Positions 4,438-60,164 of a DNA stretch of 64,000 nt are shown piece by piece. Position numbers and translations under genes: made by a program. The notes under the pieces were generated by a model, which was not told the DNA's origin, searched no databases, and worked only from the letters and a program-made list of their open reading frames with translations. The stretch comes from an uncultured Pseudomonadota bacterium (GTDB lineage Bacteria > Pseudomonadota > Alphaproteobacteria > Rs-D84): contig CACXVH010000001.1 in assembly GCA_902771095.1 (NCBI GenBank), positions 12,197 to 76,196 of the forward strand, written 5' to 3'. Each line of letters opens with the position of its first letter. Positions within the stretch are counted from its first letter, which is position 1.

Positions 4438-5043
4438 TTACCATGTTGGGGCGTGGGTGCCTTCTTTGATAATTGGCTGTTCATCTTCCCAAACTGAAAG
4501 TCCTGTTTTCAAATCCGTTAATGTTAATTGTAAATAATATTCTACGCGTGTATCAACAGATGAAAACCAGCCCGAATCCAATTTTAAATTTCTTTGCAAC
4601 ATTTTTCCAGATAATGACATGTTCGGTGCAACCAATGTTCCGGTCTTTGCAATGGTTTCTTGGTCGTATTCTGCGTTTGTGCGCATGCTGCGCATTTTTT
4701 CTGTTGTTGTATCTTCGCCAGAGAAATTAGTTGCAATTTGTGCTGTGCCAGATTTCAACAATGTAGTTCTGATTTTTTTAATCAAAACATCTGTATCAAA
4801 TCTTTGTTGGGTATCGTTCACAATCGGACCCATCGCAATTACTGGATTTTGAACCCGACGAAAAGCATTGCTTTTTAACATCGATTCGGTCATCGTTTCT
4901 GCGGTCTTGGTCCAATCGCGATATTCCAATTCCATCACATCTTGCATTGCGGCAACTTCTTTTTCGTTGTTTAAATCAACAACGCGTGTTCCGCCGCATG
5001 CGCAAAGTGTAAGCATCAATGCAACAGGTATCATTTTTTTCAT
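4438..5043 (-). CDS. Lipoprotein, LpoB-like (possible penicillin-binding protein activator)
   Basis: 201 aa. Signal peptide with lipobox LTLCAC|GG. Size and the central conserved block (AMGPIVNDTQQ) resemble LpoB-family lipoproteins. Last gene of an operon with the two upstream genes (12 bp gap). Confidence 0.45.
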   Translation of the reverse strand: MKKMIPVALMLTLCACGGTRVVDLNNEKEVAAMQDVMELEYRDWTKTAETMTESMLKSNAFRRVQNPVIAMGPIVNDTQQRFDTDVLIKKIRTTLLKSGTAQIATNFSGEDTTTEKMRSMRTNAEYDQETIAKTGTLVAPNMSLSGKMLQRNLKLDSGWFSSVDTRVEYYLQLTLTDLKTGLSVWEDEQPIIKEGTHAPTW

Positions 5044-5055
5044 ATTTTTTCTCCT

Positions 5056-6237
5056 TTATTTCAGGTTGATTTGTTTGTTGTCTGTTATTCTACCATTTAT
5101 TATTCGTGTGTAAATTAAATTATTTTTCAAAGTGCCTGATTCGTTTTTACGAATTACATATATATATTTTGGTAATGTTGCCCATGTCCGAACATCTGTG
5201 TTTGATGAAGCAACTGTATAAATAGATGAAAGTATCCCAAGTATTGGTGCAGAATCACTGCCGGAATTGTACATGGTTGCTTGTAATGTTGCTTTGCTGG
5301 CCGCAGAAGTAAAAGAACGCAACACTTCATTTGTTTGATATTCGCGGTATTCTGTCATAAACATTGCGTCTACATTAGCCAGCAGTTGTGCATTTTGTGG
5401 TGCGCCAAAATCGTCATTCAAGTAAGGTTCAGAAAAAGAAAAATACACCATACCGATATTTGGTAAAAATATTCCTGCATTTTGTTCGCGAAGACGCGGC
5501 GCAAAACCAGAATCAATAAATTGCCAGGTTGTGTTTTTAGGTGCGATTCTTTTTTGCGCCATTTCAAGGTCTTGTTTAATAAAAGTGTTTTCTGGCATCA
5601 TACCATTTGCGCGTTTAAGGTATGTTATCGCGTTATCAAAATCACCATCGTTCAAAAAATATATTCCAGATAGATACATCAATGCTGGATTCATAATATC
5701 AGTGAACGCCACCCAATCGGCTGTGTTTTTATCAATAATTTCATTTAATTCCGAATTTTCCGAAATTTTATTTTTGTTTTCTTCTATCATTTTTTTGTAT
5801 TCAATCGACATATTCTGCTGACGCGCATAAGATTGATTTATAACCACGCGCGCGTTTGCCCAATCGGACAGCGCCAACAAATCCCATATCTGATAATAAG
5901 ATACAAAAAGCGAATCCATCATATACGGCTTATAAGAATTAACACCGCCACCAAGTAAAAGTCCGGTGGCTTCGCGGGAAATCGATGAAGAAGTTTCGCT
6001 TAGATTTCTTTTATTAAATTCTTCAAATTCTGCATCGCTTTCTTTGTATTTATCGGCATGAAATAGGGCGATACCATTTATTAACAAATCAAGATTGTTT
6101 TGTTCTGTCACATTTTTTTCAGATGCTTCAAAATTACCATTTGCAAAATTGTTTTGAATATTATTTAAATACGATTCTGTTGTTGATGCACATGCACCAA
6201 GAAATAAAAACAAACAAAAGCAAATTATTTTACGCAT
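5056..6237 (-). CDS. Hypothetical lipoprotein
   Basis: 393 aa. Lipoprotein signal LFLGAC|AS. Predicted soluble helical/TPR-like domain with no recognised motif. The gap to the upstream T4CP gene is 3 bp. Confidence 0.4.
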   Translation of the reverse strand: MRKIICFCLFLFLGACASTTESYLNNIQNNFANGNFEASEKNVTEQNNLDLLINGIALFHADKYKESDAEFEEFNKRNLSETSSSISREATGLLLGGGVNSYKPYMMDSLFVSYYQIWDLLALSDWANARVVINQSYARQQNMSIEYKKMIEENKNKISENSELNEIIDKNTADWVAFTDIMNPALMYLSGIYFLNDGDFDNAITYLKRANGMMPENTFIKQDLEMAQKRIAPKNTTWQFIDSGFAPRLREQNAGIFLPNIGMVYFSFSEPYLNDDFGAPQNAQLLANVDAMFMTEYREYQTNEVLRSFTSAASKATLQATMYNSGSDSAPILGILSSIYTVASSNTDVRTWATLPKYIYVIRKNESGTLKNNLIYTRIINGRITDNKQINLK

Positions 6238-6240
6238 ATT

Positions 6241-8511
6241 TTAATGCAATGGTTCCAAGATTTTTATTTCATTAGTATTTGGATTCAAAACGCATGGTGT
6301 CCCAGAATAACCCATAATTGCGTGATGAGATGGAATTAAAAATTCTGGTAATGGCGATGCTTCACCCATTGTAACTTTTTCGTACAATTTTTTCTCGATA
6401 TCTGTTTTGTTCAAGAACCATCTTTCTTGATCTGCTTCAATTGGACGATGATACCAACCCTGGTAAATAACGAGTTGTTTACCAGTTTTTAATCGCATTA
6501 TTTCGTATTCGCTGAATATGGGTTCTTCTTTTGGTTTTTTGACTTCTTTACCATCTTCACCTTTTTCAATTTTTTCTGTTTTTTTCATGCCCATCATTTC
6601 AGAAAATCTTTTTGCTGTTTCTGGGTCGTTTTGTCGCAAAACAATTTTTGCCGCGGTTGTAGATATAATCGTATCAGCCGCATCGGCACCGTATTTTTCA
6701 CGAATTTGATGGATATCTTGACCAATTATTAAATAAGACACATTACATCCACGCCCCAAATCTGGTCCCTGGATAACAGCATCCAGTTTTTGCATTTTTG
6801 GCATTTCATCCAACACGAATAACACAGGGCAAGGTCCCATTTTTATTCCGTCTATGGTTTGATTAATATTGTGTGCCAATAAATAACTGGACATCAATTC
6901 AATAAATATTGCGGTAATCGGATTTAATGCCTGGGCATCAACCATATTGATTGATAAGTAAACAGTTACAGGTTTAAATTGACCATCCCTTGGATCAAGC
7001 ATTCCGCGTAAATCAGAAAAATGAAAATCAGAGTGAGATGTTCTGTTTCGAACAGCGGCATTACGGAATATTGCCAAACCTTCAACCATTGTTGAAAGTA
7101 TAGAACCACGTTCTTTATCTGGTGTGTTCGCCAATTGTGTTAATTCAGAAACCGCACGATGTGCGTATGCATAACGGCGCGCTTCTTCGACAGCATTTAA
7201 TAAAACATCTTTCATCGGGTCTGCCATCATAACCATTTGATCGCCCTGGCGTCTGCGTTCTTCCATTTCTTCGGCAATCGCAACCTGGCTTGATGTCAAC
7301 CAATCAAGTATCATTGCAAAAGATGCCTCACGCCCATGCCATGAATCAGGTATGTTTGCCCATGTCCCAACATGAACATAATTCGTTGTGTTTAATTCGC
7401 CGCGTTGCAACATTGAATAGGCAGCATATGCATTTGGATCGTTCATCATTGATAAATAATAATCGCCCAAAAGTGCGGCATCATCCTTGCTTAGTGTGCC
7501 ACTGTTTATGCGGGAATAGAAATAATCGTCTGCCTTGGCGCGTTCTATCTTTGATACGATAAAATTTACCAATCCTGATAATCCGGCGCGTCCAGTATTC
7601 GCCCAGTGTGGGTCTGCATTTGCGCCCTTGCTGTCTGGAACCAAAACCTTGGCCATAGAATCAATATACAAATCGCGCTGTTCCGGATTATAAGGAAGAT
7701 GTTCTGGTGATAATGGATTCCATGATGGATAATATATCCCGCGTGCCGGGTCATCTTGCCCCGCCCAATTCATAATAAACACAGGTCCCACCGTCGAACG
7801 ATACCCAGATGTCAACTGTTTTAATTCTGGTTTTGGGTCATTAATAATCATTGAAACTGTATCGCAATCAAGAATTGTTGGTATTACAACACCGGCGGTT
7901 TTACCAGTTCCTGGAGGTGCCACACACAAAGTAGATAATGCTTCATCAAACATCAATGGTTTGTTTTCACCTTTGTATTTAAAGTATCCCAATACCATCA
8001 TAAAACCATTGAAAAGCCCTTCTTTGTTTTTAAAGTTTGTTCCCATCTTTTTTATATCATCAGCATTTGCCTTGCGCGCAGATTTTTCATCATAGTTATC
8101 TTTGCCGGCAGGATTAAATTCTGATTTTAATGTATCGTCTGCCAAGAAATAATATACAATTACAGGTATCAGTGGTGTCACACATGCAAAATCTGGGTTA
8201 TGAACAGTCCGTGATAACCAATACGGAATTTCCGCGATAACAGACATCCCCAATGTTGAAAACATATTTTTTATATACAGCCAAACCCAATGTGCAGATG
8301 CGGGGCCCCATCCATAACGCCACACATGTTCAACCGCAAAAGATAATCCAAAAGCAAAGGCGCATATCAACCACACCCCGATATTCCATCGGATGTTCCA
8401 AAATTTGCGCGCCACAGGTGCCTGTTCGTGTTCTTTGTATTTTGTTGAATCAAAGATACTTAAACCCTTGCCTGAACCACTGCCTGAGAAAAGGTTGAAC
8501 TTTATTTCCAT
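6241..8511 (-). CDS. Type IV secretion coupling protein, VirD4/TraG family (T4CP)
   Basis: 756 aa from the internal start MEIKF (the track ORF extends to 8580). N-terminal TM helices. Walker A VAPPGTGKTAGVVIPTILD matches the TraG/VirD4 pattern (APTRSGKGVGxVIPxLL). Walker B-like VLFVLDEMP and the LIIGQD motif are present. Length is typical of T4CPs. Confidence 0.7.
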   Translation of the reverse strand: MEIKFNLFSGSGSGKGLSIFDSTKYKEHEQAPVARKFWNIRWNIGVWLICAFAFGLSFAVEHVWRYGWGPASAHWVWLYIKNMFSTLGMSVIAEIPYWLSRTVHNPDFACVTPLIPVIVYYFLADDTLKSEFNPAGKDNYDEKSARKANADDIKKMGTNFKNKEGLFNGFMMVLGYFKYKGENKPLMFDEALSTLCVAPPGTGKTAGVVIPTILDCDTVSMIINDPKPELKQLTSGYRSTVGPVFIMNWAGQDDPARGIYYPSWNPLSPEHLPYNPEQRDLYIDSMAKVLVPDSKGANADPHWANTGRAGLSGLVNFIVSKIERAKADDYFYSRINSGTLSKDDAALLGDYYLSMMNDPNAYAAYSMLQRGELNTTNYVHVGTWANIPDSWHGREASFAMILDWLTSSQVAIAEEMEERRRQGDQMVMMADPMKDVLLNAVEEARRYAYAHRAVSELTQLANTPDKERGSILSTMVEGLAIFRNAAVRNRTSHSDFHFSDLRGMLDPRDGQFKPVTVYLSINMVDAQALNPITAIFIELMSSYLLAHNINQTIDGIKMGPCPVLFVLDEMPKMQKLDAVIQGPDLGRGCNVSYLIIGQDIHQIREKYGADAADTIISTTAAKIVLRQNDPETAKRFSEMMGMKKTEKIEKGEDGKEVKKPKEEPIFSEYEIMRLKTGKQLVIYQGWYHRPIEADQERWFLNKTDIEKKLYEKVTMGEASPLPEFLIPSHHAIMGYSGTPCVLNPNTNEIKILEPLH

Positions 8512-8564
8512 GGTTGCTATTATATCACAAAAATAGAGATTTTTATAATATAAAAGATTAAAAA

Positions 8565-9224
8565 ATGCAAAATGTGCCAAGAATATATTTGAACGAAAAT
8601 TTGGAATCTGGAAAAAGTTTTCCGATTGATAAAGATGTTGTTCATTATCTGCGTCGTGTAATGCGGCGGGATAATTGTTTGGTCTTTAATAAAGGCATAG
8701 AATATACCGCCATACTAAGTGATGATAACAAAAGTATAATTATTGGTGAAAAAACGAATCGAATTGATCCATCCAATGATATTGTTTTTTATTTTGCACC
8801 AATTAAGAAAATAGATGAAATGTTAAATATGGTGACACAAATGGGGGTTGCGGTATTACAACCTGTGATAACCGAACGTACAGTTGCCAATCATATAAAT
8901 TGGGTGCGTCAGAAAAAAATTATTGTTGAAGCATCAGAACAATCGAATCGCAACAGTATCCCAGAATTAAGAGAACCAATTAAATTCGTTGATTTAGATT
9001 TAAAAAATTTAATTGTTGCAGATGAACGTTTTGCACACGAATTAAAAGTAGAAAAAAAACAAATAAAAACGAATCGCATTTTTGTTGGCCCCGAAGGGGG
9101 CTTTTCCCCGAAAGAATTTGAAAAAATGGATGTGGCAGGGGTTTGTAGTTTGTCTTTGGGTAAAACTATTTTGCGTGCCGAAGTGGCGGCTGTGGTTGCG
9201 ATATCAAAGGTGTTAAATAAATGA
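8565..9224 (+). CDS. rsmE: 16S rRNA (uracil1498-N3)-methyltransferase RsmE
   Basis: 219 aa. N-terminal PRIYL motif and C-terminal GPEGGFS ... ILR-AE-A block are characteristic of RsmE (SPOUT family). Confidence 0.85.
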   Translation: MQNVPRIYLNENLESGKSFPIDKDVVHYLRRVMRRDNCLVFNKGIEYTAILSDDNKSIIIGEKTNRIDPSNDIVFYFAPIKKIDEMLNMVTQMGVAVLQPVITERTVANHINWVRQKKIIVEASEQSNRNSIPELREPIKFVDLDLKNLIVADERFAHELKVEKKQIKTNRIFVGPEGGFSPKEFEKMDVAGVCSLSLGKTILRAEVAAVVAISKVLNK

Positions 9225-14085: not shown

Positions 14086-14203
14086 TAATAACCACCCATT
14101 CGGGTGGTTTTTTTATGTAAAAAAATCTATATTTTTGTTTTTTTCTCTTTTATTATAGTCATTTTTATGATAAAATAGATGTAAAGTAAAATGGAGAAAA
14201 GGG

Positions 14204-17200
14204 ATGAGAAACATCGTCAAAATACTTAGTTTATTGTCAATAATTGCCGTAATTCCGGCATCTTTTGCGGCTACTTCGCGTGTCAGTGTGACAAGTAAGG
14301 CATCGCCGCGTTTGCCGTCTATTGCGACCCGGTTGGTGTCTGGAACGGTGACAGGAACAACCACAACTTCGTCTACGGCTGCATATTATGGCGACAGCGA
14401 ATGTATTGAAAAATATACCGACTGTATCAAGGCAGATGATGTTTGTGGTTCTGATATGCAAGAATGTACGACAAATGTTTTGTTCCACGGACAAATGGCA
14501 AATTGTTTAAGTGTTTTGTATCAATGCTCTTCATCTGGTATTAACGCATTGTTTGGAACAACTGCGATAAACGCGTTGTCTAATGTTGCGGAATCGCATA
14601 CAATACCATCTGCGACCCGCAGTGGCGCGACAGAGGTTGTTGTCGATAGATATACATATCCGGCAAATGGTTCTGTATTGGGTCAATTGATTATCGGTGC
14701 CGGTATTACAAATAAATTAACAACCGAACAATGTGTCCGTCGTTATACAAATTGTTTGCAACGCGATGATATTTGTGGTGCTGATTTTGAATTGTGCACA
14801 TCGGCCAAGACATTTAAGAAGCAGGCATTGCTTTGTGATTCGACATTACAACGTTGCCAAGAAACCGGTAAAACACAGTTATTTGGTTCTGTTGCGAACG
14901 CAAATAATTTAACATATGCTGGTGATTCCAGAATTGGCACTTTGGTTGCCGAAGGGGCATCCACAGCGGCATTGAACGCGGTTAAGACCTGTCAAAAGGT
15001 AACAGATAACTGTTTGGTTAACGCGTGTGCAAAAAATCCATTAAGTTGTGTCGAAGGGACCAGCTTGGCATCAATCGACGCAGCCAATATTATTGCCGAA
15101 GGAACTGGTGCTTTGACAACTTCCCAGGTTATGCATGATGGTGTTGAAACAGCCAGTGCTTCGGATGTTCGTAAATTGTTAAAGACCGCGTGTTTGGAAA
15201 CAATCGGTTCGAACAGATATTGCCATATGACATATCGTGAAAAAGTTCCTTCTGACCGTGAATTGGGAGATCCAGATTTACAAGAAGAAGTATTTTCATT
15301 GGCTTATTCTGCACGTAAAAGTTATGCAAATACCAAGATTCAAGAAGCAATGAAAAAATTCGATACCAAGGCAAAGAATTCTTGTGTTGAAACAATCAAA
15401 GAATGTGCAATGCGTTCTTGCGGTGGGGGACTTGGTTCTGTGTGTTATACAAGGTCTAAATCTGGTGATGGTGTGCATGTGAACGATACCAGAACTTATG
15501 GTGATATTTTGTCTGGGTGTTCTGCGATTGTAAATGCTGATGCAAATTGTATCTATGCTGCGACATCTGCCGGAACAGATGGATACACATATACATATTA
15601 TGATGAAGATGGTTCAACATTTAGTACTTTGTTCCCATCTTATAATGAATCCGTATCTGATCCGATTGGTGCGGTTGCGACATTGAATTCTATACTCTCT
15701 ACATCTTATAATCCTGCGGCGATTGAAAATATGAAAAAACAATGTCAAACGATTGCTCTTTCTTGTGTAAAGGCCATGTGCGGTAAAGAATATGTTAATT
15801 GCTATCGCAGCAGAACAGATATTGTTTCTGGAACTTATGATACTGGTAATGCGAGATTGGATCGTAGCATGAATAAGATGGGCGGTGTCCTGGATTACAA
15901 TATTGTTATCGGTTTGTGTATGAATACGGTGAAAACATCATCTGTATGTGAAGAGCATTTGAAGATAGCAATTGCGGATCAATGGCCAGATGATAGAAGT
16001 GATACAACTTCATGGAATGGGTACACATCTGTTCGTGAAGCATGGCGTGGTGCGAATTCAACAGAAGTCGCAGCATACGAAGGTAAAGGTATCGTTGTTG
16101 CTTGTGCTGCTTCAAGTATTCAACAACTTGCTTCAACAGTAGCGGCTTTGGTCGGTGGAGAAGATGCAGCAGATTGTACAGGCACTATGGAACCGCTTGT
16201 TAACAGCGAAGGAATGACATATTGTGATCAGTCCGTGATCGATTCAGATACCGGGTGTATATATGATCAACCAGTTTACCAATCACAAACGGAATATTTG
16301 TTGACTAATGCTGGTACATCTTTGTTCCAAACATTGTTAGCGGATGTTGAAAAAGAAGTTCAGGCGATGTACAATGCCAAATTAAACAAAGAGCAACGTG
16401 TTTGTATGGCTAATAATAATGGTGGAATTATGGGTAACAAAGAAAGTGGTTCTACATTTTTGTGGGTAAAGTTGAGAAATAGCAAGGTACCAAAGAACTA
16501 TGTTTCGAAAGGTTTAACCACAAAACAATTCGTTGAATCAAATGATTTGTATGGTTCGTTCTGTCGTGCAAGAATTACTGTGCAATCTGACGACAAAGAT
16601 ATCCAAGATTTGTTGAAAAATAATTCTGTGGCATACTTTGCGGTTGGTGATTCATTTACCTGTGGTTCTTGGATAAGCGATGCTGATTTGCGCAAGATTT
16701 CGGATACAGTTGGTAACCGTGAATTGTGCAAACAGGGTTATGGTCAATGGGTTGATGGCGAATGTAAGGGCAGCAAATTATCAACCAAAGAGAAGATTGC
16801 TTATGCCTGGGGCACAGTCGCACCTGCGTTGGCTGGAACAGGAATTGGTTTGGGGTTGACTGAAAGTGGTTTACTTGGGGGATGGATGAATAGTGCTGAT
16901 TCTAAATTAAATGATGAGGCGACGAGAGGGAGAAGCAGAAACAGTTGTATAAATTATGCTAATTCGGCAAATACCGCATCTGATTTAAGCTTGTGTGAAA
17001 GTTATTTAAATTCTGCTGAGACATTGTGTGAAGAAGTCGGTGGTAATAGTAATCTTTGTTCACAATCGATACAAGGTAACAATGATGAAACAAAGTTGAA
17101 AGATTGTAAAAATAAAGCATTGATTGTCAAAGATGAATGTACATCGGCATATAAATCAAATATGAAAACAAATACGGCGGCACGTGTCACGATTCCAATT

Positions 17201-17389
17201 GTTACAGGGTTTGCTGCTGGTGGTTTGGGTGCTGGTATAACTGCTTCGGTTATTAAACAGAACAAAGAAAATATTAAAAATGAAGCGGCACAACAATGGA
17301 TGGATGAAATCGGTGAACATATCCAATGCTATATTGGCACCGAAGAATTGGGAACATACGGCGATGTCGTAAGTATCGAATTAGATTAA
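14204..17389 (+). CDS. Large secreted cysteine-rich repeat protein with C-terminal glycine-zipper/TM anchor
   Basis: 1061 aa. Sec signal peptide (AVIPASFA|AT). At least two tandem internal repeats of about 110 aa with spaced Cys (ECIEKYTDCIKADDVCGSDMQECT.. / QCVRRYTNCLQRDDICGADFELCT..). C-terminal hydrophobic Gly-rich segments (GTGIGLGLTESGLLGG; IPIVTGFAAGGLGAGITASVI) and a short tail. No known domain recognised. Confidence 0.5.
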   Translation: MRNIVKILSLLSIIAVIPASFAATSRVSVTSKASPRLPSIATRLVSGTVTGTTTTSSTAAYYGDSECIEKYTDCIKADDVCGSDMQECTTNVLFHGQMANCLSVLYQCSSSGINALFGTTAINALSNVAESHTIPSATRSGATEVVVDRYTYPANGSVLGQLIIGAGITNKLTTEQCVRRYTNCLQRDDICGADFELCTSAKTFKKQALLCDSTLQRCQETGKTQLFGSVANANNLTYAGDSRIGTLVAEGASTAALNAVKTCQKVTDNCLVNACAKNPLSCVEGTSLASIDAANIIAEGTGALTTSQVMHDGVETASASDVRKLLKTACLETIGSNRYCHMTYREKVPSDRELGDPDLQEEVFSLAYSARKSYANTKIQEAMKKFDTKAKNSCVETIKECAMRSCGGGLGSVCYTRSKSGDGVHVNDTRTYGDILSGCSAIVNADANCIYAATSAGTDGYTYTYYDEDGSTFSTLFPSYNESVSDPIGAVATLNSILSTSYNPAAIENMKKQCQTIALSCVKAMCGKEYVNCYRSRTDIVSGTYDTGNARLDRSMNKMGGVLDYNIVIGLCMNTVKTSSVCEEHLKIAIADQWPDDRSDTTSWNGYTSVREAWRGANSTEVAAYEGKGIVVACAASSIQQLASTVAALVGGEDAADCTGTMEPLVNSEGMTYCDQSVIDSDTGCIYDQPVYQSQTEYLLTNAGTSLFQTLLADVEKEVQAMYNAKLNKEQRVCMANNNGGIMGNKESGSTFLWVKLRNSKVPKNYVSKGLTTKQFVESNDLYGSFCRARITVQSDDKDIQDLLKNNSVAYFAVGDSFTCGSWISDADLRKISDTVGNRELCKQGYGQWVDGECKGSKLSTKEKIAYAWGTVAPALAGTGIGLGLTESGLLGGWMNSADSKLNDEATRGRSRNSCINYANSANTASDLSLCESYLNSAETLCEEVGGNSNLCSQSIQGNNDETKLKDCKNKALIVKDECTSAYKSNMKTNTAARVTIPIVTGFAAGGLGAGITASVIKQNKENIKNEAAQQWMDEIGEHIQCYIGTEELGTYGDVVSIELD

Positions 17390-17404: not shown

Positions 17405-17435
17405 AAAAAAGGTTGCGGGAACGCAACCTTTTTTT
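17405..17435. terminator. Rho-independent terminator
   Basis: GGTTGCG-GGAA-CGCAACC hairpin followed by a T7 run, just after the large gene. Confidence 0.8.
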
Positions 17436-27953: not shown

Positions 27954-28637
27954 ATGTTTATAAGAAAAGATAATACTTTGAAATGGAAATGGATTTTATT
28001 TGGCGCGATTTTAACAATTGCGCTGGTGTTGGGATGTGTGTTCGGTTGGGACAAGGATTTATATTCAATTTTACACAATCCACAATGTAACCCGTGGACA
28101 ATGGGTGATGGATTTTGGTGCGGCGTTGCATTTGTATTGGGAAAAATTTTTAGTACAAAAATGTGGTTTGTGGCATCTTTGTTGGCAGTGATAAGTTTCT
28201 TTGTATACAAAGCTGTCACGAATGAAAACGATTTCCGATTCGCTTTTGTAAAGATAAAGAACAGTTATGCTTTCTATTTATTGTGTTCTGTATTGATGGC
28301 GATTTTAACAACCGGTGTATTAAAGGTTTTAATTGGTCGTTCCAGACCCATTATTTACGAGGCATTAGATGCGACTTTCTTTGTCCCTGGGACATTTGAA
28401 AGTGTGTTTAATTCAATGCCGTCTGGACATACAGCGGTCAGTTTTGCCGGTCTTGTTATGATTGGAATGTTGCTTCCGAAAATTAAATGGGCAACATGGA
28501 CCTTGGCAATAATTATTGGTTTGTCGCGTGTTTATATCGGCGCGCATTGGGCGGGTGATGTTATTTTGGGTGCGTTTATCGGAATGTTATGCGCAGATTT
28601 GACCAAGGCATTGTTAAAGAAAATAAATACGAAATAA
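27954..28637 (+). CDS. PAP2-family lipid phosphatase (PgpB/LpxE/LpxF-like)
   Basis: 227 aa. Polytopic membrane protein with PAP2 motifs KxxxxxxRP (KVLIGRSRP), PSGH (MPSGHTA) and SRxxxxxHxxxD (SRVYIGAHWAGD). Confidence 0.75.
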   Translation: MFIRKDNTLKWKWILFGAILTIALVLGCVFGWDKDLYSILHNPQCNPWTMGDGFWCGVAFVLGKIFSTKMWFVASLLAVISFFVYKAVTNENDFRFAFVKIKNSYAFYLLCSVLMAILTTGVLKVLIGRSRPIIYEALDATFFVPGTFESVFNSMPSGHTAVSFAGLVMIGMLLPKIKWATWTLAIIIGLSRVYIGAHWAGDVILGAFIGMLCADLTKALLKKINTK

Positions 28638-28644
28638 AAAAATT

Positions 28645-28810
28645 CTCCCCCAGTGGGGGAGTACCGATGAAGGCGGGGAGGGGGGTGAACCCTCCCCACC
28701 GCAATGCGGTCCCCCCCCCTCCGGTGGAGGGGAATTCACACTCGTCGCGGACTTACATTCTCTCCCTGTGGGGGAGGGAACCACGAAGTGGTGAGGGGGG
28801 TAAAAAACTT
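28645..28810. repeat. GC-rich composite repeat, copy L (short G/C hairpins plus a direct repeat ending GGTGAGGGGGGTAAAAAA)
   Basis: In an AT-rich background there are palindromes CTCCCCC-AGT-GGGGGAG (28645..28661), CCGC-AAT-GCGG, a C9 homopolymer, CCTCC-GGT-GGAGG and CCAC-GAA-GTGG. The 65-bp block 28743..28807 is repeated at 29242..29309. Confidence 0.8.
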
Positions 28811-28846
28811 CTTGCTAGTTATGTTTATTTGTTTTACTTTTTTTGC

Positions 28847-29194
28847 ATGCATAATTATAACGGTAAACTTAAAAAATTAGCGCGCGCAAATCGCAGGGCG
28901 GGAAATTTATCAGAAGCATTGCTTTGGTGTGAATTAAAGAACAGTAAACTAGGGGTAAGTTTTACCAAGCAAAAACCGATTGGGAATTATATTGCTGATT
29001 TTTACTGTGCTGAAAAAAATATGGTTATAGAAATAGACGGTTGGTCGCACGATAATAAATACGAATATGACAAGGTGCGTGATGAATACATGAAAACACT
29101 TGGGATACATGTGTTGAGAATATCTGATATAGATGTAAAACGTGATATGTCAGGGACTCTTGATTGGATAAAGATAAATCTTGATATGTTGTAA
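28847..29194 (+). CDS. DUF559-type endonuclease-domain protein (very-short-patch-repair/Mrr-like restriction fold)
   Basis: 115 aa from the internal ATG at 28847. Motifs match DUF559 proteins (ALLWCELKN ... FTKQKPIGNYIADFYC ... IEIDGWSHD). The track ORF starts at 28589 only because the GC-rich repeat happens to be an open frame. Confidence 0.65.
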   Translation: MHNYNGKLKKLARANRRAGNLSEALLWCELKNSKLGVSFTKQKPIGNYIADFYCAEKNMVIEIDGWSHDNKYEYDKVRDEYMKTLGIHVLRISDIDVKRDMSGTLDWIKINLDML

Positions 29195-30892: not shown

Positions 30893-31213
30893 TTACATCG
30901 CCTTTAATTCTTTAATCCATTGGGTTAATGTTTCGTCATCCATCAATCCTGTTCTGGCTTCTTTCAATTCGCCGTTTTTAAATGCCAAAACACTTGGGAT
31001 ACTGCGTATGCCGAACTTTGCCGGTGTGCGACGATTACCTTCGTCAATTTCAAATTTTACAAAATGAACATCCTTTTCTTTTTCAGATACATCTTCAAAT
31101 ATAGGTCCAAACATTTGGCACGGGCCACACCATGATGCCCAAAAGTCCACCAATGTCAAACCATCCCGTACCATTGAATCAAAGTTTTCATCGTTTGCGT
31201 GCTGTAATGCCAT
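30893..31213 (-). CDS. trxA: Thioredoxin
   Basis: 106 aa. WCGPC active site and conserved thioredoxin fold motifs. Confidence 0.9.
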   Translation of the reverse strand: MALQHANDENFDSMVRDGLTLVDFWASWCGPCQMFGPIFEDVSEKEKDVHFVKFEIDEGNRRTPAKFGIRSIPSVLAFKNGELKEARTGLMDDETLTQWIKELKAM

Positions 31214-46947: not shown

Positions 46948-48519
46948 ATGAAAAGATTCCTTATACTTGTTTCATTGTTTTGCTTATGTACTGTTGCGCA
47001 TGCTGCGCAATACTTTGAAGCAGGGGTGAATTATTCTGGGATTTCTACTTTTTCAGATTCAATTGTTTATATCGATAGTGGGGCAATTGTTTCTTCAACA
47101 GGTAATAATATAATAATGAACGAACCTGTTTATTTATATAACAGTGGGCATATAGACGGAACAATAAACACAAATGGAAATACTTTGGTTGTTTATAATT
47201 CTGGACTGATGAATGGCGGGATAAATCCAAACGGTGGTTTGGTAAAACAGGTTATTACTGCGCCATCAGAAATAACAAATATTGGTATGCCCATGGGACA
47301 AAGTCCTGTTGTCGCAATAGAAAATTATGATAATTTTGATTTTAATAATTTGGATAGTATAAATGCGCAATCTTTTATCATAACTGATTCATCGATAGTT
47401 ATGGATAATTTTTCAGATTGGCAAATGTGTCCAGAAAATATAGAACTTAATGGCAATGTTTCTTTGATTATAAATAATCCGGACAGTGTCAATTCTGGTG
47501 AAGTTATAAAATACACAAAAAGCGGCACCAGAATTTTTGTTAAAATCAATAAGTTAGATAAAATGTATAAACCTGTATTAAAAGTTTCTAATGGTGGTAT
47601 TGTTTTGGATATCGTGCGTGAAACTGATTATAGTGTCATTTTTGGTAATGGTAATAGCGATGAGGATAAAAGAAATACTGCATTAGAAACAATAAGAGAT
47701 AATCATCCGAATGATAAATTATTAAAGGCTTTGGATGCAGCAGACAATTTGGGTGAAATAAAAAGATTAGAAAATTTATCGTATAGGTTTAATCATGGCA
47801 TTTTGTTGCGACCAATTAAAATGATAACGAAATTTTCAATGTCTGATTTAATAACCAATGAAAAAGATTTAGGGGTTGGTGTTATTCCGTATTATATCAT
47901 GTCAGATAAAATGGATGCAGTGGATGGGCATTTGTATATCGGGCATAAACACGATAATTTGTATTTCTATGCTGGGGTTAATTTGAATAAGTTTGAATAT
48001 AGTGATGAATTAAATGATTTTTCAGGGTTGTCTTATGGAATGGATTTTCAATCCAGACAAACATTTGATAAATTTTGGATTAACGAAGTATTGGGTTTTT
48101 CTTTGACAAGTTTCAAGGCAGATTATATTTCGATGGATGGCAAGATAAAAAATAATCCTTTGGGATTTTCTTGGTATGGTGATTTGTCTGTTGGGTATGA
48201 TTTTAATACGGATGAAAATATAATACTGACGCCAATTATGGGGCTTTCCTATCAACCGTATAATATAGCAGATGTTTCAGAAACAGATTCTTTTGTGCAT
48301 ATTGGAGCCGATGCAAAATACTTTTTTGTTGTGGATGGAATCAAATATGAATATGTTCTATCTGCTGCATACGGCACAAATGGTGATTTATTTGCTAATT
48401 TAAAAATAGGTTTTACATCTGTAATGGATGAAGCAGGTGTGTCGTTAAACACAGGTGTATTGAAAGATGATTTTGATTATCATTACAAAATATCACTAAA
48501 CGCAAAAGTAATGTTTTAA
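46948..48519 (+). CDS. Outer-membrane protein, autotransporter-like (beta-helix-like passenger plus C-terminal barrel)
   Basis: 523 aa. Signal peptide. N-terminal Asn/Gly-rich degenerate repeats (NSGxIDGTINTNGNTLVVYNSG). C-terminal amphipathic strands ending in the terminal Phe typical of OMP barrels. Confidence 0.45.
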   Translation: MKRFLILVSLFCLCTVAHAAQYFEAGVNYSGISTFSDSIVYIDSGAIVSSTGNNIIMNEPVYLYNSGHIDGTINTNGNTLVVYNSGLMNGGINPNGGLVKQVITAPSEITNIGMPMGQSPVVAIENYDNFDFNNLDSINAQSFIITDSSIVMDNFSDWQMCPENIELNGNVSLIINNPDSVNSGEVIKYTKSGTRIFVKINKLDKMYKPVLKVSNGGIVLDIVRETDYSVIFGNGNSDEDKRNTALETIRDNHPNDKLLKALDAADNLGEIKRLENLSYRFNHGILLRPIKMITKFSMSDLITNEKDLGVGVIPYYIMSDKMDAVDGHLYIGHKHDNLYFYAGVNLNKFEYSDELNDFSGLSYGMDFQSRQTFDKFWINEVLGFSLTSFKADYISMDGKIKNNPLGFSWYGDLSVGYDFNTDENIILTPIMGLSYQPYNIADVSETDSFVHIGADAKYFFVVDGIKYEYVLSAAYGTNGDLFANLKIGFTSVMDEAGVSLNTGVLKDDFDYHYKISLNAKVMF

Positions 48520-59241: not shown

Positions 59242-60129
59242 ATGTCCTGTAAGAATTGTTTTTTTGCTGTGATGGTCGGGTGTTTTTCATGGTCTGCTTT
59301 TGCCGAAATGCCCCAGGTTGTAACTTCTGAGGTTTTTGGTGATTCTCATCAGGAAGTGACAGAATACGTCCAAGAAGATTATGTTGAACCAGTTAGGGAA
59401 GAAGTGCCTGTGTGGCCATTGCCGGGGTCTGAGGCAGATGTTGAAATCGTTTGTGACGAAACAACTGGTTGTGGCGGTGAAGAAAAGATTGTCAACAGGA
59501 TTGGTTCCGGATTGATTATTGAAAACAATATTAATACTGTTGGGACAGGGTGGTCTGGTGGTCCAAATATTTCAAATGGCTATATGATACCCGAAGGTTT
59601 TGACTATGAATGTGCAAATGGTGCGGAAATGCCGTTAATGCGTCGTGAAATGATGGAAGATGATGGTGGTTCTGTGTTGGCTGTATCGCGCAGTGCAAGA
59701 AAAACTTGTGGTATGGCGGCAAATGCAGATTCTTATGCTGTGTTTGCACAACGCGCTGGATTTGCACCGGAAAAAACTTGTAATTCGGTAAACGGTATTG
59801 AAAATGGTGGTGTCGCTACAGAGGTTAGTGTTAACGGTTATATCGAAGAAGAAATCAATGACCCTGTTCAAGACCAGGTTCGTTCGTGGGTCGTTGCAGA
59901 TGGTCAAACATTACGCGAAGTTTTGCAATCTTGGTGTGATAAAGCGGGCTGGGATTTGGTCTGGACAACTGCGCGTGAATACCCGATTGAAGCAAGTGCT
60001 GTGTTCAAAGGCCGTTTTATGGATGTCGCTTCTGCTTTGGTTCGTAATTTTGAACGCGCAACACCAATTCCATATGCAAAATTTTACAAAGGTAATCGTG
60101 TAGTGGTCGTTTCAACTTCGGAAGAATAA
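59242..60129 (+). CDS. Secreted TcpQ/PilL-like protein (type IVb pilus / conjugative-pilus secretin partner family)
   Basis: 295 aa. Signal peptide (SWSAFA|EM). The C-terminal approximately 90 aa (WVVADGQTLREVLQSWCDKAGWDLVWTT ... FKGRFMDVASALV) match the W..G.TLR..L..W....GW.L.W pattern I recall for the TcpQ/PilL family. The N-terminal half is acidic/Gly-rich with Cys. Confidence 0.45.
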   Translation: MSCKNCFFAVMVGCFSWSAFAEMPQVVTSEVFGDSHQEVTEYVQEDYVEPVREEVPVWPLPGSEADVEIVCDETTGCGGEEKIVNRIGSGLIIENNINTVGTGWSGGPNISNGYMIPEGFDYECANGAEMPLMRREMMEDDGGSVLAVSRSARKTCGMAANADSYAVFAQRAGFAPEKTCNSVNGIENGGVATEVSVNGYIEEEINDPVQDQVRSWVVADGQTLREVLQSWCDKAGWDLVWTTAREYPIEASAVFKGRFMDVASALVRNFERATPIPYAKFYKGNRVVVVSTSEE

Positions 60130-60164
60130 ATTGCAGAAATATAGAAAGAGGGAAAGGGGAAAAC

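What the first reader, a model, noticed from the sequence alone, without database searches (positions are those of the whole stretch)
14204..17389. 1061-aa secreted cysteine-rich protein with tandem approximately 110-aa repeats and a C-terminal glycine-zipper anchor: a founder of a local paralog family
It is the largest gene in the window. It has a signal peptide and at least two internal repeats with a fixed Cys spacing (EC..YT.C..DD.CG.D.ELCT ... C ... C). The C-terminus ends in two Gly-rich hydrophobic segments (GxxxG-type) with a short tail, suggesting a surface-anchored or pore-forming module. I recognise no described domain. A shorter paralog of its C-terminal module lies at 62787..63548. 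Proteins like this are candidate surface adhesins or host-interaction factors.
Basis: partly seen in the sequence, partly recalled or inferred. Interest (0 to 1): 0.55.

Follow-up and report, generated by a model that had tools for sequence, protein, structure and literature searches.

The report
Disulfide-rich envelope protein with swappable head
This is a real, previously undescribed 1061-residue secreted protein, so far seen only in small-genome gut bacteria (Candidatus Enterousia); two glycine-rich membrane-type helices flank a roughly 100-residue domain that strains exchange wholesale, as happens in surface-exposed recognition modules.

Summary
ORF 14204..17389 (+) encodes a 1061-aa protein with a signal peptide and 46 Cys. 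It has two clear repeats (hhalign E 7e-24) and three degenerate 4-Cys units. Two glycine-zipper segments and a 253-aa paralog (62787..63548) that shares an alpha/beta module plus zipper (hhalign 96.7%) are also confirmed.

No Pfam, NCBIfam, PHROGs, PADLOC, PDB-sequence or Foldseek match was found. Homologs (256 clusters among 1.84 billion proteins) are all from Ca. Enterousia-type gut Alphaproteobacteria. The gene looks single-copy and usually sits next to lpxD.

New findings:
- The ~100 aa between the two zippers is a recombining hypervariable cassette. The window and a relative are collinear at 91-93% nt, but this segment has no detectable similarity (dN 0.87 against 0.014 in the N-terminal part).
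- Backbones more than 90% identical often carry unrelated cassettes, and the reverse also occurs.
- Cassette Cys counts are even in 181/181 homologs, so this segment is disulfide-bonded and therefore extracytoplasmic.

Best model, inferred and not shown: a SlyB-like glycine-zipper hairpin sits in the outer membrane and displays a variable, disulfide-stapled helical head. The conserved rod, module and tail stay in the periplasm. Location and function remain untested. This is a new family, and I class it as a new variant of variable surface proteins.

The parts
14204..17389 (+). Complete CDS of the 1061-aa protein ('BIG'), stop codon included
   Evidence: the ORF listing. An exact-sequence match, P0001, is in the public collection. 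Full-length homologs are found in 30 GTDB species genomes.
14090..14203 (+). Upstream control region: the tatA terminator hairpin (14090-14109 plus T-run), an AT-rich spacer, and the ribosome-binding site GGAGAAAAGGG just before the ATG
   Evidence: Terminator scan and sequence. The in-frame 'KWRKG' codons conserved upstream in orthologs correspond to the ribosome-binding site. No promoter was identified with confidence.
14204..14269 (+). Signal peptide (aa 1-22), predicted signal peptidase I cleavage ASFA|A
   Evidence: Read from the sequence. It is the most hydrophobic segment of the protein. The A-x-A|ATSR junction is conserved in orthologs. No signal-peptide predictor was available.
14270..14383 (+). 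Conserved N-terminal linear motif (ATSRVS...SPRLPSIA; R26, R36-A41 invariant), followed by a variable Ser/Thr linker. The structure prediction treats it as disordered.
   Evidence: Invariant columns in A1. pLDDT is 25-31. Similar motifs follow the signal peptides of the paralog and of the ORF at 63575.
14384..14593 (+). Repeat R1 (aa 61-130): helical, six Cys with spacing C-x6-C-x6-C-x6-C-x12-C-x6-C
   Evidence: hhalign R1 against R2 gives prob 99.6%, E 6.6e-24. pLDDT is about 80-85 and the segment is helical. About 11% of full-length homologs lack it.
14696..14923 (+). Repeat R2 (aa 165-240): same six-Cys helical unit
   Evidence: The Cys are 99% conserved over 181 homologs.
14951..15958 (+). 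Helical region with three degenerate 4-Cys units (C-x6-C-x4-C-x6/7-C at aa 263-282, 394-414, 514-533) and three further conserved Cys pairs (330/340, 439/449, 572/582)
   Evidence: Cys positions. Cys conservation is 99-100%. Weak profile similarity among the units and to R1/R2, E 2e-5 to 7e-4. Helical in the AF2 model.
16049..16288 (+). HVA (aa 616-695): second, weaker mosaic region, rich in indels, with 0/2/4/6 Cys
   Evidence: Entropy 1.9-2.6 bits, up to 54% gaps. Window against L001: dN 0.21 and dS 1.61, while the flanks have dN 0-0.02 and dS 0.14-0.22. Cys counts are always even.
16289..16798 (+). Long helix plus alpha/beta module (aa 696-865) with three invariant Cys (734, 787, 820); this is the part shared with the 253-aa paralog
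   Evidence: BLASTP E 5e-9. hhalign prob 96.7%. pLDDT 75-85 with mixed strands and helices. The module has 3 or 5 Cys, an odd number.
16799..16888 (+). Glycine zipper 1 (aa 866-895): AYAWGTVAPALAGTGIGLGLTESGLLGGW
   Evidence: Sequence. W869, G878, G882 and G889 have entropy of 0.9 bits or less. Hydrophobicity is marginal: 19-residue sum of +5.2, against -1 to -3.3 for single-span inner-membrane anchors in the same window and +4.4/+8.4 for E. coli SlyB zipper helices.
16889..17173 (+). HVB (aa 896-990): hypervariable, recombining cassette. It is a predicted helical bundle bracketed by conserved C915 and C979. The stretch with no blastn similarity to the closest relative is nt 16870-17157.
   Evidence: Entropy about 3 bits. 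No blastn similarity to L001 inside an otherwise collinear 14 kb at 91-93% nt identity. dN 0.75-1.29 in every close pair. Backbone and cassette are discordant in both directions. At least 125 cassette clusters among 181 proteins. Cys count is even in 181/181. pLDDT 80-90. This window's cassette type was found in only one other sequence.
17174..17257 (+). Glycine zipper 2 (aa 991-1018): ARVTIPIVTGFAAGGLGAGITASVIK
   Evidence: Sequence. 19-residue hydrophobicity sum is +2.7. No Cys in any homolog.
17258..17386 (+). Conserved 43-aa tail (helix plus small beta-hairpin) with a single, nearly invariant Cys (C1042)
   Evidence: W1032, G1037, H1039, I1040, C1042, Y1043, G1045, G1050, Y1052 and G1053 are invariant. 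The tail has one Cys in 176/181 homologs, which complements the odd Cys count of the module. dN 0.03-0.05 against close relatives.
17411..17435 (+). Intrinsic-terminator-like hairpin after the stop codon (GGTTGCG-GGAA-CGCAACC followed by T7)
   Evidence: Read directly from the sequence. The pattern scan did not list it.
62787..63548 (+). 253-aa paralog: signal peptide, conserved motif APRYTASVNQL, variable linker, alpha/beta module with 3 invariant Cys (aa 66-160), one glycine zipper (aa 163-195, nt 63273-63371), and a variable tail (aa 196-253)
   Evidence: The tail is the fastest-evolving part: 47% identity where the core is 90-95% identical. The tail has 0 or 2 Cys in 116/116 homologs. Conserved synteny is TcpQ-secretin-S20-PlsY-paralog-DprA-DnaA.

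Best explanation
The gene encodes a lineage-specific envelope protein of Candidatus Enterousia, a group of gut Alphaproteobacteria (order Rs-D84) with genomes of about 0.75-1 Mb.

**What the sequence and its homologs show**
- It has a Sec-type signal peptide.
- It has about 23 potential disulfides, whose cysteines are nearly invariant or always occur in even numbers.
- It has a conserved helical repeat region and an alpha/beta module.
- It has two glycine-zipper segments that bracket a roughly 100-aa domain. That domain is replaced wholesale between strains by recombination, while everything around it is under strong purifying selection.

**Inferred mechanism**
1. After export, the two marginally hydrophobic glycine-zipper helices escape inner-membrane arrest. 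They insert as an antiparallel hairpin in the outer membrane, as the glycine-zipper helices of SlyB-type lipoproteins do.
2. The conserved N-terminal rod, the module and the C-terminal tail stay on the periplasmic side. The tail is probably disulfide-linked to the module.
3. The 'turn' of the hairpin has been expanded into a disulfide-stapled helical head displayed on the cell surface.
4. That head is the part seen by phages, host immunity or a partner cell. It is therefore kept hyperdiverse by balancing or diversifying selection and by allele exchange.
5. The 253-aa paralog is the minimal version: module, one zipper, variable exposed tail.
6. The invariant disordered N-terminal motif would dock the periplasmic end onto a conserved partner.
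For: **Family and context**
- Only 256 clusters at E<=1e-3 among 1.84 billion representatives. All named hits are Ca. Enterousia, 'Alphaproteobacteria bacterium' or 'uncultured proteobacterium' MAGs from animal guts.
- The lineage is described as genome-reduced and metabolically dependent (PMC12306168).
- The cell is diderm: LpxD, LptF/G, LolA, an OMP beta-barrel, an autotransporter, a secretin, PBPs and a SPOR protein are all in the window.

**Extracytoplasmic location on both sides of zipper 1**
- There is a signal peptide, and Cys 177-582, 734, 787, 820 and 1042 are nearly invariant.
- The cassette has 2, 4, 6 or 8 Cys, even in 181/181 homologs although Cys positions vary. The paralog tail has 0 or 2 Cys in 116/116.

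**Module and tail on the same side**
- The module has an odd Cys count (3 or 5), and the tail has exactly 1 Cys in 176/181.

**The zippers do not look like inner-membrane anchors**
- The 19-residue hydrophobicity sums are +5.2 and +2.7. Single-span anchors encoded in the same window score -1.0 to -3.3. E. coli SlyB zipper helices score +4.4 and +8.4.
- There is no positive-inside bias at any of the four flanks.
- Precedent exists for glycine-zipper helices residing in the outer membrane: SlyB, YfgH, OsmB and YiaD (bioRxiv 10.64898/2025.12.22.696046).

**Hypervariable exchanged cassette**
- Window against L001: the neighbourhood is 91-93% nt identical, yet nt 16870-17157 has no blastn match.
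- For that pair, dN/dS components are 0.014/0.17 for aa 61-600 and 0.87/1.47 for the cassette.
- Of 190 pairs with more than 90% identical backbones, 100 have cassette identity below 30%, which is the level of shuffled sequences (18 +/- 4%).
- Backbones only 64% identical can share an 81% identical cassette.
- The cassette is nevertheless confidently predicted as a helical bundle (pLDDT 80-90) and keeps its C915/C979 bracket.

**Paralog shows the same polarity**
- Conserved module, then zipper, then variable tail.
Against: - **No direct evidence of location.** No proteomics, no topology predictor and no model coordinates were available, so disulfide pairings and zipper packing are inferred from Cys counts only.
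- **The zippers are poorly modelled.** AF2 gives them pLDDT 25-40 and does not build a hairpin.
- **No sequence link to known glycine-zipper families.** The zippers give no Pfam glycine-zipper hit even at E<=10, whether tested alone or concatenated, and the protein is not a lipoprotein.
- **A second mosaic region sits on the 'periplasmic' side.** HVA (aa 616-695) lies on the N-terminal side of zipper 1. If hypervariability means surface exposure, part of the supposedly periplasmic body is exposed too. That favours an all-surface topology.
- **No insertion pathway is known.** How a helical hairpin of a non-lipoprotein would reach and enter the outer membrane is unknown.
- **No disulfide-forming system was found.** None is encoded in the 64-kb window; only a cytoplasmic thioredoxin is present. 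The lineage reportedly lacks a respiratory chain, so the source of oxidising power for about 23 disulfides is unexplained.
- **dN/dS is not decisive.** In the cassette it is 0.5-1.3 with saturated dS, so positive selection is not formally shown.
Confidence: 0.4

Rival explanations
1. Wholly surface-located (or secreted and cell-attached) fibrous adhesin. The entire disulfide-rich rod is outside the cell, perhaps exported through the secretin encoded nearby. The zippers dip into the outer leaflet or hold oligomers together. HVA and HVB together form the variable binding face.
For: - There are two mosaic regions, one on each side of zipper 1.
- A TcpQ-secretin pair lies at 59242..61796, next to the paralog's locus.
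- Extensive disulfide stapling is typical of proteins that face a harsh exterior.
- The lineage is thought to depend on partner cells.
Against: - aa 61-600 are under very strong purifying selection. For window against L001, dN is 0.000 over aa 61-280 and 0.014 overall. That is unusual for an exposed fibre in a gut organism.
- No T2SS genes or pilin-like features are linked to the gene. Only the adjacency to lpxD is conserved.
- It does not explain why the variable cassette sits exactly between two membrane-type helices.
Confidence: 0.2
2. Periplasmic structural or oligomeric protein in which the glycine zippers mediate helix-helix packing or peripheral membrane association without spanning a membrane. 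The variable segments would simply be weakly constrained linkers reshuffled by recombination.
For: - AF2 gives no membrane-like hairpin, and confidence for the zippers is low.
- Zipper hydrophobicity is marginal.
- dN/dS in the cassette is not clearly above 1.
- The conserved adjacency to lpxD fits an envelope housekeeping role.
Against: - The cassette is not junk. It always keeps paired Cys and the C915/C979 bracket and is predicted as a confident helical bundle.
- Individual cassette types are conserved at 81% identity on backbones only 64% identical. That means selection maintains and transfers alleles.
- Synonymous divergence is 8-10 fold higher than in the flanks. This indicates old allelic lineages, not local relaxation of constraint.
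Confidence: 0.17
3. Inner-membrane anchored periplasmic protein, the first reader's 'anchor' taken literally. Zipper 1 and zipper 2 would be ordinary transmembrane helices and the cassette would be a cytoplasmic loop.
For: - There are two hydrophobic segments of about 20-25 residues after a cleaved signal peptide.
- Zipper 2 (+2.7) is about as hydrophobic as some helices of polytopic inner-membrane proteins in the window.
Against: - Even Cys counts in 181/181 hypervariable cassettes, and 0 or 2 Cys in 116/116 paralog tails, argue for disulfides. That implies a non-cytoplasmic location.
- There is no positive-inside charge bias.
- The zippers are much less hydrophobic than the single-span anchors of the same genome.
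- There is no obvious reason for extreme allelic diversity in a cytoplasmic loop.
Confidence: 0.1
4. Membrane-inserting toxin or effector. The glycine zippers, as in VacA or glycine-zipper bacteriocins and T6SS/T7SS effectors, would insert into a target cell's membrane to form a pore or an anchor. The variable cassette would be a polymorphic toxin or receptor-binding module.
For: - Tandem GxxxG zippers are typical of channel-forming helices (Kim et al. 2005, cited).
- Conserved backbone with a swapped cassette resembles polymorphic toxins.
- The organism probably lives off partner cells.
Against: - There is no immunity-like gene downstream. The gap between this gene and lpxD is 82-313 bp in most genomes, and the occasional inserts are DUF559-type ORFs.
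- The variable part is internal and is followed by a highly conserved zipper and tail.
- There are no toxin, PADLOC or PHROG domain hits.
- It appears to be a single-copy core gene in every species genome sampled.
Confidence: 0.08

Closest known systems
SlyB / YfgH / OsmB-type outer-membrane glycine-zipper lipoproteins (Pfam 'glycine zipper 2TM', PF05433)
   Same: - Sec-exported proteins of diderm bacteria with two GxxxG-rich, only marginally hydrophobic helices. The 19-residue sums are +4.4/+8.4 for SlyB and +5.2/+2.7 here.
- These helices reside in the outer membrane as a hairpin, with a folded domain on the periplasmic side.
   Different: - There is no HMM match, even when the two zippers are joined artificially.
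- It is not a lipoprotein.
- The two helices are separated by a roughly 100-aa hypervariable folded domain instead of a tight turn.
- It is 1061 aa with about 23 disulfides.
- Outer-membrane residence is not shown here.
Flagellin and type IV pilin architecture (conserved assembly or anchor segments flanking a hypervariable exposed domain or a disulfide-bounded D-region)
   Same: - Conserved flanks are under purifying selection and bracket a central or terminal exposed domain.
- That domain is replaced by recombination between strains and exists in very many allelic types.
- As in the pilin D-region, the variable part is closed by a conserved Cys pair (C915/C979).
   Different: - No sequence or fold similarity.
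- No filament-forming coiled-coil termini and no prepilin leader.
- The flanks here are glycine zippers.
Msp2/P44 and related hypervariable outer-membrane antigens of Anaplasmataceae (Alphaproteobacteria)
   Same: A major envelope protein of a genome-reduced, host-associated alphaproteobacterium, with a central hypervariable region between conserved flanks.
   Different: - Those are beta-barrel proteins (PF01617) that vary within one genome by gene conversion from silent cassettes.
- Here there is no beta-barrel domain.
- No silent cassettes are present in the 64-kb window or in the fetched flanks.
- The variation seen here is between strains.
Chlamydial cysteine-rich envelope proteins (OmcB/OmcA)
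   Same: Sec-exported, very cysteine-rich envelope proteins of a genome-reduced diderm, thought to be stabilised by many disulfides.
   Different: No homology: no hit to any chlamydial cysteine-rich envelope-protein family or to any other Pfam family. The fold here is helical, and there are glycine zippers and a hypervariable cassette.
Polymorphic toxins (CdiA, Rhs, MafB)
   Same: Nearly identical backbones carry unrelated swapped modules with sharp recombination boundaries.
   Different: The variable module is internal rather than C-terminal. There is no downstream immunity gene and no toxin domain.

Membership tests
Glycine zipper 2TM outer-membrane lipoproteins (SlyB/YfgH; PF05433 and related Pfam glycine-zipper families) | Significant match to the family HMM | tested here: not met
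   No Pfam hit for the whole protein at E<=1, for the isolated zipper segments at E<=10, or for the two zippers joined artificially at E<=10.
Glycine zipper 2TM outer-membrane lipoproteins (SlyB/YfgH; PF05433 and related Pfam glycine-zipper families) | Lipoprotein signal peptide with a lipobox Cys | tested here: not met
   The signal peptide ends ...IPASFA|ATS, and the first Cys is at residue 67. This is conserved in orthologs.
Glycine zipper 2TM outer-membrane lipoproteins (SlyB/YfgH; PF05433 and related Pfam glycine-zipper families) | Two GxxxG-rich helices of marginal hydrophobicity | tested here: met
   Interleaved GxxxG/S/T runs at 870-893 and 1002-1015. Hydrophobicity sums are in the same range as the SlyB helices.
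Glycine zipper 2TM outer-membrane lipoproteins (SlyB/YfgH; PF05433 and related Pfam glycine-zipper families) | The two helices are joined by a short turn | tested here: not met
   They are separated by a domain of 23-338 aa, median about 116 aa.
Glycine zipper 2TM outer-membrane lipoproteins (SlyB/YfgH; PF05433 and related Pfam glycine-zipper families) | Residence in the outer membrane | not testable with these tools
   Needs fractionation, proteomics or microscopy. Only indirect support is available: Cys parity on both sides of the zipper and no positive-inside bias.
Polymorphic toxin systems (CdiA/Rhs-like) | Variable toxin domain at the extreme C-terminus | tested here: not met
   The variable cassette (aa 896-990) is followed by a conserved zipper and a 43-aa tail with 10 invariant residues.
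Polymorphic toxin systems (CdiA/Rhs-like) | Cognate immunity gene immediately downstream | tested here: not met
   The gap between this gene and lpxD is 82-313 bp with no ORF in most of 21 loci. The occasional inserts are DUF559-like ORFs or an unrelated 187-aa ORF.
Msp2/P44-type hypervariable outer-membrane proteins | Surface_Ag_2 beta-barrel domain | tested here: not met
   No Pfam hit. The AF2 secondary structure is mostly helical, with only a small alpha/beta module.
Msp2/P44-type hypervariable outer-membrane proteins | Silent donor cassettes in the same genome | tested here: inconclusive
   tblastn of 181 cassettes against the window and all fetched loci hits only the gene itself. Only 64 kb of a genome of about 0.9 Mb was available.
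Autotransporter / beta-barrel-anchored adhesins | C-terminal beta-barrel translocator domain | tested here: not met
   No Pfam Autotransporter or OMP hit, whereas the window's real autotransporter (46948..48519) is detected. The C-terminus is helix plus a short hairpin.
Chlamydial cysteine-rich outer-membrane proteins (OmcB) | Match to the family HMM | tested here: not met
   No Pfam or NCBIfam hit of any kind.

The most novel reading that the evidence does not exclude
The protein and its short paralog would define a new way of building a bacterial surface protein. An alpha-helical glycine-zipper hairpin (a single helix in the paralog) spans the outer membrane of a diderm cell. It serves as a socket for a freely exchangeable, disulfide-stapled display domain. 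A conserved periplasmic rod with about 18 disulfides ties that socket to the rest of the envelope. In an uncultured, metabolically dependent gut symbiont, the cassette would then be the strain-specific determinant of partner, host or phage recognition.
Probability: 0.3. Interest if true: 0.8.

Novelty: new variant of a known kind. Interest (0 to 1): 0.6.

Why it matters
- **An untouched lineage.** Candidatus Enterousia / Rs-D84 are widespread but uncultured gut bacteria with genomes of about 0.75-1 Mb and no standard nutrient transporters. How they contact hosts or partner cells is unknown (PMC12306168).
- **A strong candidate for the interface.** This gene takes about 0.35% of such a genome and is present in every species genome sampled. 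It combines a strongly conserved body with one of the most diverse segments one can find: at least 125 types among 181 proteins, and this window's type was seen only once more in 5.8 billion sequences. That makes it a leading candidate for the lineage's main surface-recognition or phage-receptor determinant.
- **A practical marker.** The cassette could serve for strain typing in metagenomes.
- **Two mechanistic questions become testable.** Can glycine-zipper helices carry a folded domain across the outer membrane? How does an anaerobe without a respiratory chain oxidise about 23 disulfides?
- **If the outer-membrane model is wrong,** the finding still defines a new, sizeable orphan protein family with an unusual mosaic population structure.

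Tried and rejected
- **Domain libraries.** Pfam, NCBIfam, PHROGs and PADLOC were scanned with the whole protein, the paralog, the isolated zippers, the module and artificially joined zippers. Nothing was found.
- **Solved structures by sequence.** A PDB profile search gave only noise at E>0.09.
- **Structure of the paralog.** Its AF2 model was too poor to search with (pLDDT 52).
- **Third paralog at 28589..29194.** A weak BLAST hit (E 0.3) was rejected because this ORF is a DUF559 endonuclease.
- **Link to the type IV secretion coupling protein 6 kb upstream.** Rejected as a conserved association, because that synteny holds only in the closest relatives. Only the adjacency to lpxD is general.
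- **Toxin-immunity reading.** There is no downstream ORF.
- **Silent-cassette gene conversion.** No extra cassette copies were found in the sequence available.
- **Diversity-generating retroelement or hypermutation.** Not pursued, because cassettes differ by wholesale replacement with indels and saturated synonymous divergence rather than by point changes.
- **Hydrophobicity as a topology test.** Supportive only. The scale values were taken from memory of Hessa et al. 2005 and summed without position weighting.
- **Search for a periplasmic disulfide oxidoreductase in the window.** Only a cytoplasmic thioredoxin was found.
- **Search with this window's cassette alone.** It returned a single 142-aa fragment and did not even return the parent protein, so the word-index search is not exhaustive for such a short query.

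Full report
**1. The observation**

The window has an ATG-initiated ORF at 14204..17389 (+) of 1061 codons. It is the longest ORF in the 64 kb.

The N-terminus (MRNIVK-ILSLLSIIAVIP-ASFA|ATS) has the layout of a signal peptidase I substrate and no lipobox.

There are 46 cysteines. Positions 67/74/81/88/101/108 and 177/184/191/198/211/218 have identical spacing, exactly 110 residues apart. Profile-profile comparison of the two segments, using sub-alignments of 181 homologs, gives probability 99.6% and E 6.6e-24. The repeat is therefore real.

Three further C-x6-C-x4-C-x6/7-C units (263-282, 394-414, 514-533) resemble each other and R1/R2 only weakly (E 2e-5 to 7e-4).

Two Gly-rich hydrophobic stretches with interleaved GxxxG/S/T runs lie at aa 866-895 and 991-1018.

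The proposed paralog at 62787..63548 (253 aa) shares aa 730-888 of the large protein. The shared part is an alpha/beta module with three invariant Cys plus the following zipper, including a conserved Glu just after it. The support is BLASTP E 5e-9, hhalign probability 96.7% with E 3.2e-10, and reciprocal HMM hits to 29 orthologs. HMM searches of all window ORFs find no further member.

The gene has its own expression signals. The tatA terminator lies upstream, and a GGAG-type ribosome-binding site, conserved in orthologs, precedes the ATG. A terminator hairpin lies at 17411-17435.

**2. Whose gene it is**

The exact protein is in public assemblies (P0001). There are 712 word-index hits, all unnamed or 'hypothetical', and none has Pfam domains.

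An exhaustive profile search of 1.84 billion cluster representatives found only 256 clusters at E<=1e-3. Nearly all listed hits are full-length relatives or fragments of them.

In one-genome-per-species GTDB contigs the family occurs once in each of 30 genomes. These are labelled Candidatus Enterousia, 'Alphaproteobacteria bacterium' or 'uncultured proteobacterium', and come from rumen, horse, yak, sheep and human-associated samples.

Enterousia (order Rs-D84) has genomes of about 0.75-1.0 Mb. It lacks the TCA cycle, respiratory chains and standard nutrient transporters, and is suspected to live off partner organisms (PMC12306168).

The window encodes a normal diderm envelope: LpxD, LptF/G, LolA, an OMP beta-barrel, an autotransporter, a TcpQ-secretin pair, PBPs, an LpoB-like protein, a SPOR protein and Tat and Sec components.

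The gene lies directly upstream of lpxD in 21 of the 30 loci, whereas the upstream neighbours change. LpxD is 81-97% identical where the large protein is 36-85% identical.

**3. No known relatives**

- Pfam, NCBIfam, PHROGs and PADLOC are all negative for the whole protein, the paralog, the module, the isolated zippers and artificially joined zippers.
- A family profile finds nothing among PDB sequences.
- The AlphaFold2 model has mean pLDDT 65.7 and pTM 0.37, with domains at 75-90. It is mainly helical up to about aa 600. It then has a long helix and an alpha/beta module (690-860), low-confidence zippers, a very confident helical bundle at 905-981, and a small C-terminal hairpin.
- Foldseek against PDB and BFVD gives no match at E<=1e-3.

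**4. What the family alignment reveals**

Conservation was computed over 181 full-length homologs (24-90% identity to the window protein).

- *Conserved cysteines.* The cysteines at 177-582, 734, 787, 820 and 1042 are 99-100% conserved. R1 and its six Cys are missing from about 11% of homologs.
- *The most variable segment.* This is aa 896-990, between the zippers. Its entropy is about 3 bits, against 1-2 elsewhere, and its length ranges from 23 to 338 aa. Only C915 and C979 are fixed there (entropy 0.1).
- *Even Cys counts in the cassette.* Although the other Cys positions move, the cassette holds 2, 4, 6 or 8 Cys. The count is even in 181 of 181 sequences (178 distinct).
- *Even Cys counts in the paralog tail.* The variable tail after the paralog's zipper has 0 or 2 Cys, never 1, in 116 of 116 homologs.
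- *Odd counts that complement each other.* The module has 3 or 5 Cys and the C-terminal tail has exactly 1 in 176/181.

These parities are what obligate disulfide pairing predicts. I conclude three things, all by inference:

1. The N-terminal body and the cassette both fold in an oxidising, non-cytoplasmic compartment.
2. The tail Cys probably pairs with the odd Cys of the module.
3. The module and the tail are therefore on the same side, with the cassette at the tip of a zipper 1 / zipper 2 hairpin.

**5. The cassette is exchanged between strains**

*Window against L001.* The window and locus L001 (a Ca. Enterousia MAG) are collinear over 14 kb at 91-93% nucleotide identity. The exception is window 16870-17157, where blastn finds nothing.

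| Region (window vs L001, Nei-Gojobori) | dN | dS | Call |
|---|---|---|---|
| aa 61-280 | 0.000 | 0.14 | 86 |
| aa 61-600 | 0.014 | 0.17 | 65 |
| Cassette (aa 898-994 / 889-990) | 0.87 / 0.86 | 1.47 / 1.85 | 65 / 86 |

Five other close pairs show the same contrast.

*Protein-level discordance.* Among 190 pairs whose backbones (aa 150-600) are more than 90% identical, 100 have cassette identity below 30%. Shuffled cassettes give 18 +/- 4%, with a maximum of 30%.

- P0022 and P0030 are 98.9% identical in the backbone but 19% identical in the cassette.
- P0112 and P0092 are 64.5% identical in the backbone but 81% identical in the cassette.

*Diversity.* Single-linkage clustering at 45% identity gives at least 125 cassette types among 181 proteins. 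A search of 5.8 billion proteins with this window's cassette returned one 142-aa fragment at 83% identity.

*A second mosaic segment.* HVA (aa 616-695) lies upstream of the module. It is weaker and is not variable in every pair.

*The paralog* shows the same polarity in milder form. Its tail is 47% identical where its core is 90-95% identical.

*No extra copies.* No extra cassette copies occur in the window or in the fetched flanks. The variation seen is therefore allelic, between strains.

**6. Topology arguments**

- *Hydrophobicity.* A simple 19-residue sum of the Hessa biological hydrophobicity scale was used. The values were taken from memory and carry no position weighting. Zipper 1 scores +5.2, zipper 2 scores +2.7 and the paralog zipper scores +3.4. 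Single-span inner-membrane anchors in the same window (TatA, the SPOR protein, SecF TM1, LptF/G TM1) score -1.0 to -3.3.
- *Comparison with SlyB.* The glycine-zipper helices of E. coli SlyB score +4.4 and +8.4. SlyB is an outer-membrane lipoprotein that crosses the Sec translocon without arrest. Its zipper helices sit in the outer membrane (summarised in bioRxiv 10.64898/2025.12.22.696046).
- *Charge bias.* K+R content is the same (2.3-3.2 per about 15 residues) at all four zipper flanks, so there is no positive-inside signature.

Together with the cysteine parities, this argues against an ordinary inner-membrane anchor. It does not prove outer-membrane insertion.

**7. Best explanation and rivals**

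*Best explanation (confidence about 0.4).* I favour a SlyB-like hairpin of two glycine-zipper helices in the outer membrane. Its turn has been expanded into a surface-displayed, disulfide-stapled helical head. The conserved repeat rod, module and tail are periplasmic. The invariant but disordered N-terminal motif (ATSRVS...SPRLPSIA) acts as a docking peptide. The head is the target of strain-level selection by phages, host immunity or a partner cell.

*Main weaknesses.*
- There is no direct localisation.
- The zippers are modelled with low confidence.
- The second mosaic region, HVA, lies on the supposedly periplasmic side.
- No insertion route is known for a non-lipoprotein helical hairpin.
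- No disulfide oxidase has been identified in a lineage without a respiratory chain.

*Rivals.*

| Rival | Confidence | Main point |
|---|---|---|
| All-surface adhesin | 0.2 | HVA and HVB together form the variable binding face |
| Periplasmic oligomer with unconstrained linkers | 0.17 | Contradicted by the maintenance and transfer of cassette types |
| Inner-membrane anchor with a cytoplasmic loop | 0.1 | Contradicted by Cys parity and charge distribution |
| Zipper-based toxin or effector | 0.08 | No immunity gene; the variable part is internal; it is a core single-copy gene |

**8. Comparison with known systems and novelty**

- The anchor works most like the glycine-zipper 2TM lipoproteins. 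It fails their membership tests: no HMM match, no lipobox and no short turn.
- The population-genetic pattern works like flagellin central domains, pilin D-regions or Msp2/P44 hypervariable regions. There is no homology to any of these, no beta-barrel and no silent cassettes in the sequence available.
- The family itself is undescribed.
- I rate it a new variant of a known kind, namely variable envelope or surface proteins. There is about a 30% chance that it represents something more unusual: an alpha-helical outer-membrane display scaffold. Interest is 0.6.

Noticed in passing
window 63575..64000 (+), runs off the window end; complete in L031:10789-11310 (173 aa), with orthologs at L034:3786-4439 and L036:3774-4277: This is a third small secreted protein, directly after the paralog. 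It is Ser/Thr/Ala-rich and has no Cys. It keeps the motifs 'A|(A/P)SSVRVLG' and 'SSRFPVI(T/Q)PA', which resemble the large protein's 'A|ATSRVSV' and 'SPRLPSIA' and the paralog's 'APRYTASV'. Its C-terminal 'GYVFMWVEE' resembles the module's 'GSTFLWVK' (hhalign prob only 3%). The gene is absent from L035. This could be a lineage-specific N-terminal sorting or docking signal shared by several envelope proteins.
   Followed up: partly
window 16049..16288 (aa 616-695 of the large protein): This is a second mosaic segment (HVA) inside the otherwise conserved N-terminal body. Against L001 it has dS 1.61, while the flanks have 0.14-0.22. It is highly divergent in some strain pairs and conserved in others, and always holds 0, 2, 4 or 6 Cys.
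   Followed up: partly
window 6241..8580 (-): A VirD4/TraG-type type IV secretion coupling protein (PF02534, E 1e-52) stands alone, with no other T4SS genes around it. Its neighbours are an LpoB-like lipoprotein (4438..5043) and a 393-aa lipoprotein-like ORF without domains (5056..6237).
   Followed up: no
window 59242..61796 (+): A TcpQ-like protein and a secretin (PF10671, PF00263) form a pair with no other pilus or T2SS genes nearby. The pair is syntenic with S20-PlsY-paralog-DprA-DnaA in four genomes, so the right end of the window lies about 3 kb from dnaA.
   Followed up: partly
L012, L014, L018 (gap between the large gene and lpxD); window 28589..29194: Homologous 115-aa ORFs are inserted between the large gene and lpxD in some genomes. 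They resemble the DUF559 (Vsr-like endonuclease) ORF found elsewhere in the window (DUF559 assignment by eye only). L001 instead carries an unrelated 187-aa ORF there. This spot appears to be an insertion hotspot for small selfish genes.
   Followed up: no
L007:69-4952 and L019:63-4920: In more distant Enterousia-like genomes the large gene is preceded by five consecutive ORFs (about 450, 401, 442, 170 and 160 aa). None of the five L007 ORFs has a Pfam hit; the L019 ORFs have the same sizes and order but were not scanned. They are followed by a pseudouridine synthase. This is another block of lineage-specific unknown genes.
   Followed up: no
window 30893..31213 (-) and the whole window: The only thioredoxin-fold protein found in the 64 kb is a 106-aa protein without a signal peptide, so it is cytoplasmic. 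No DsbA, DsbB or VKOR candidate was seen, although this window alone encodes proteins that need about 25 disulfides, and the lineage is reported to lack a respiratory chain.
   Followed up: partly
window 16889..17173: The cassette has lower G+C (33.7%, GC3 23.5%) than the gene as a whole (40.4%, GC3 30.7%).
   Followed up: no
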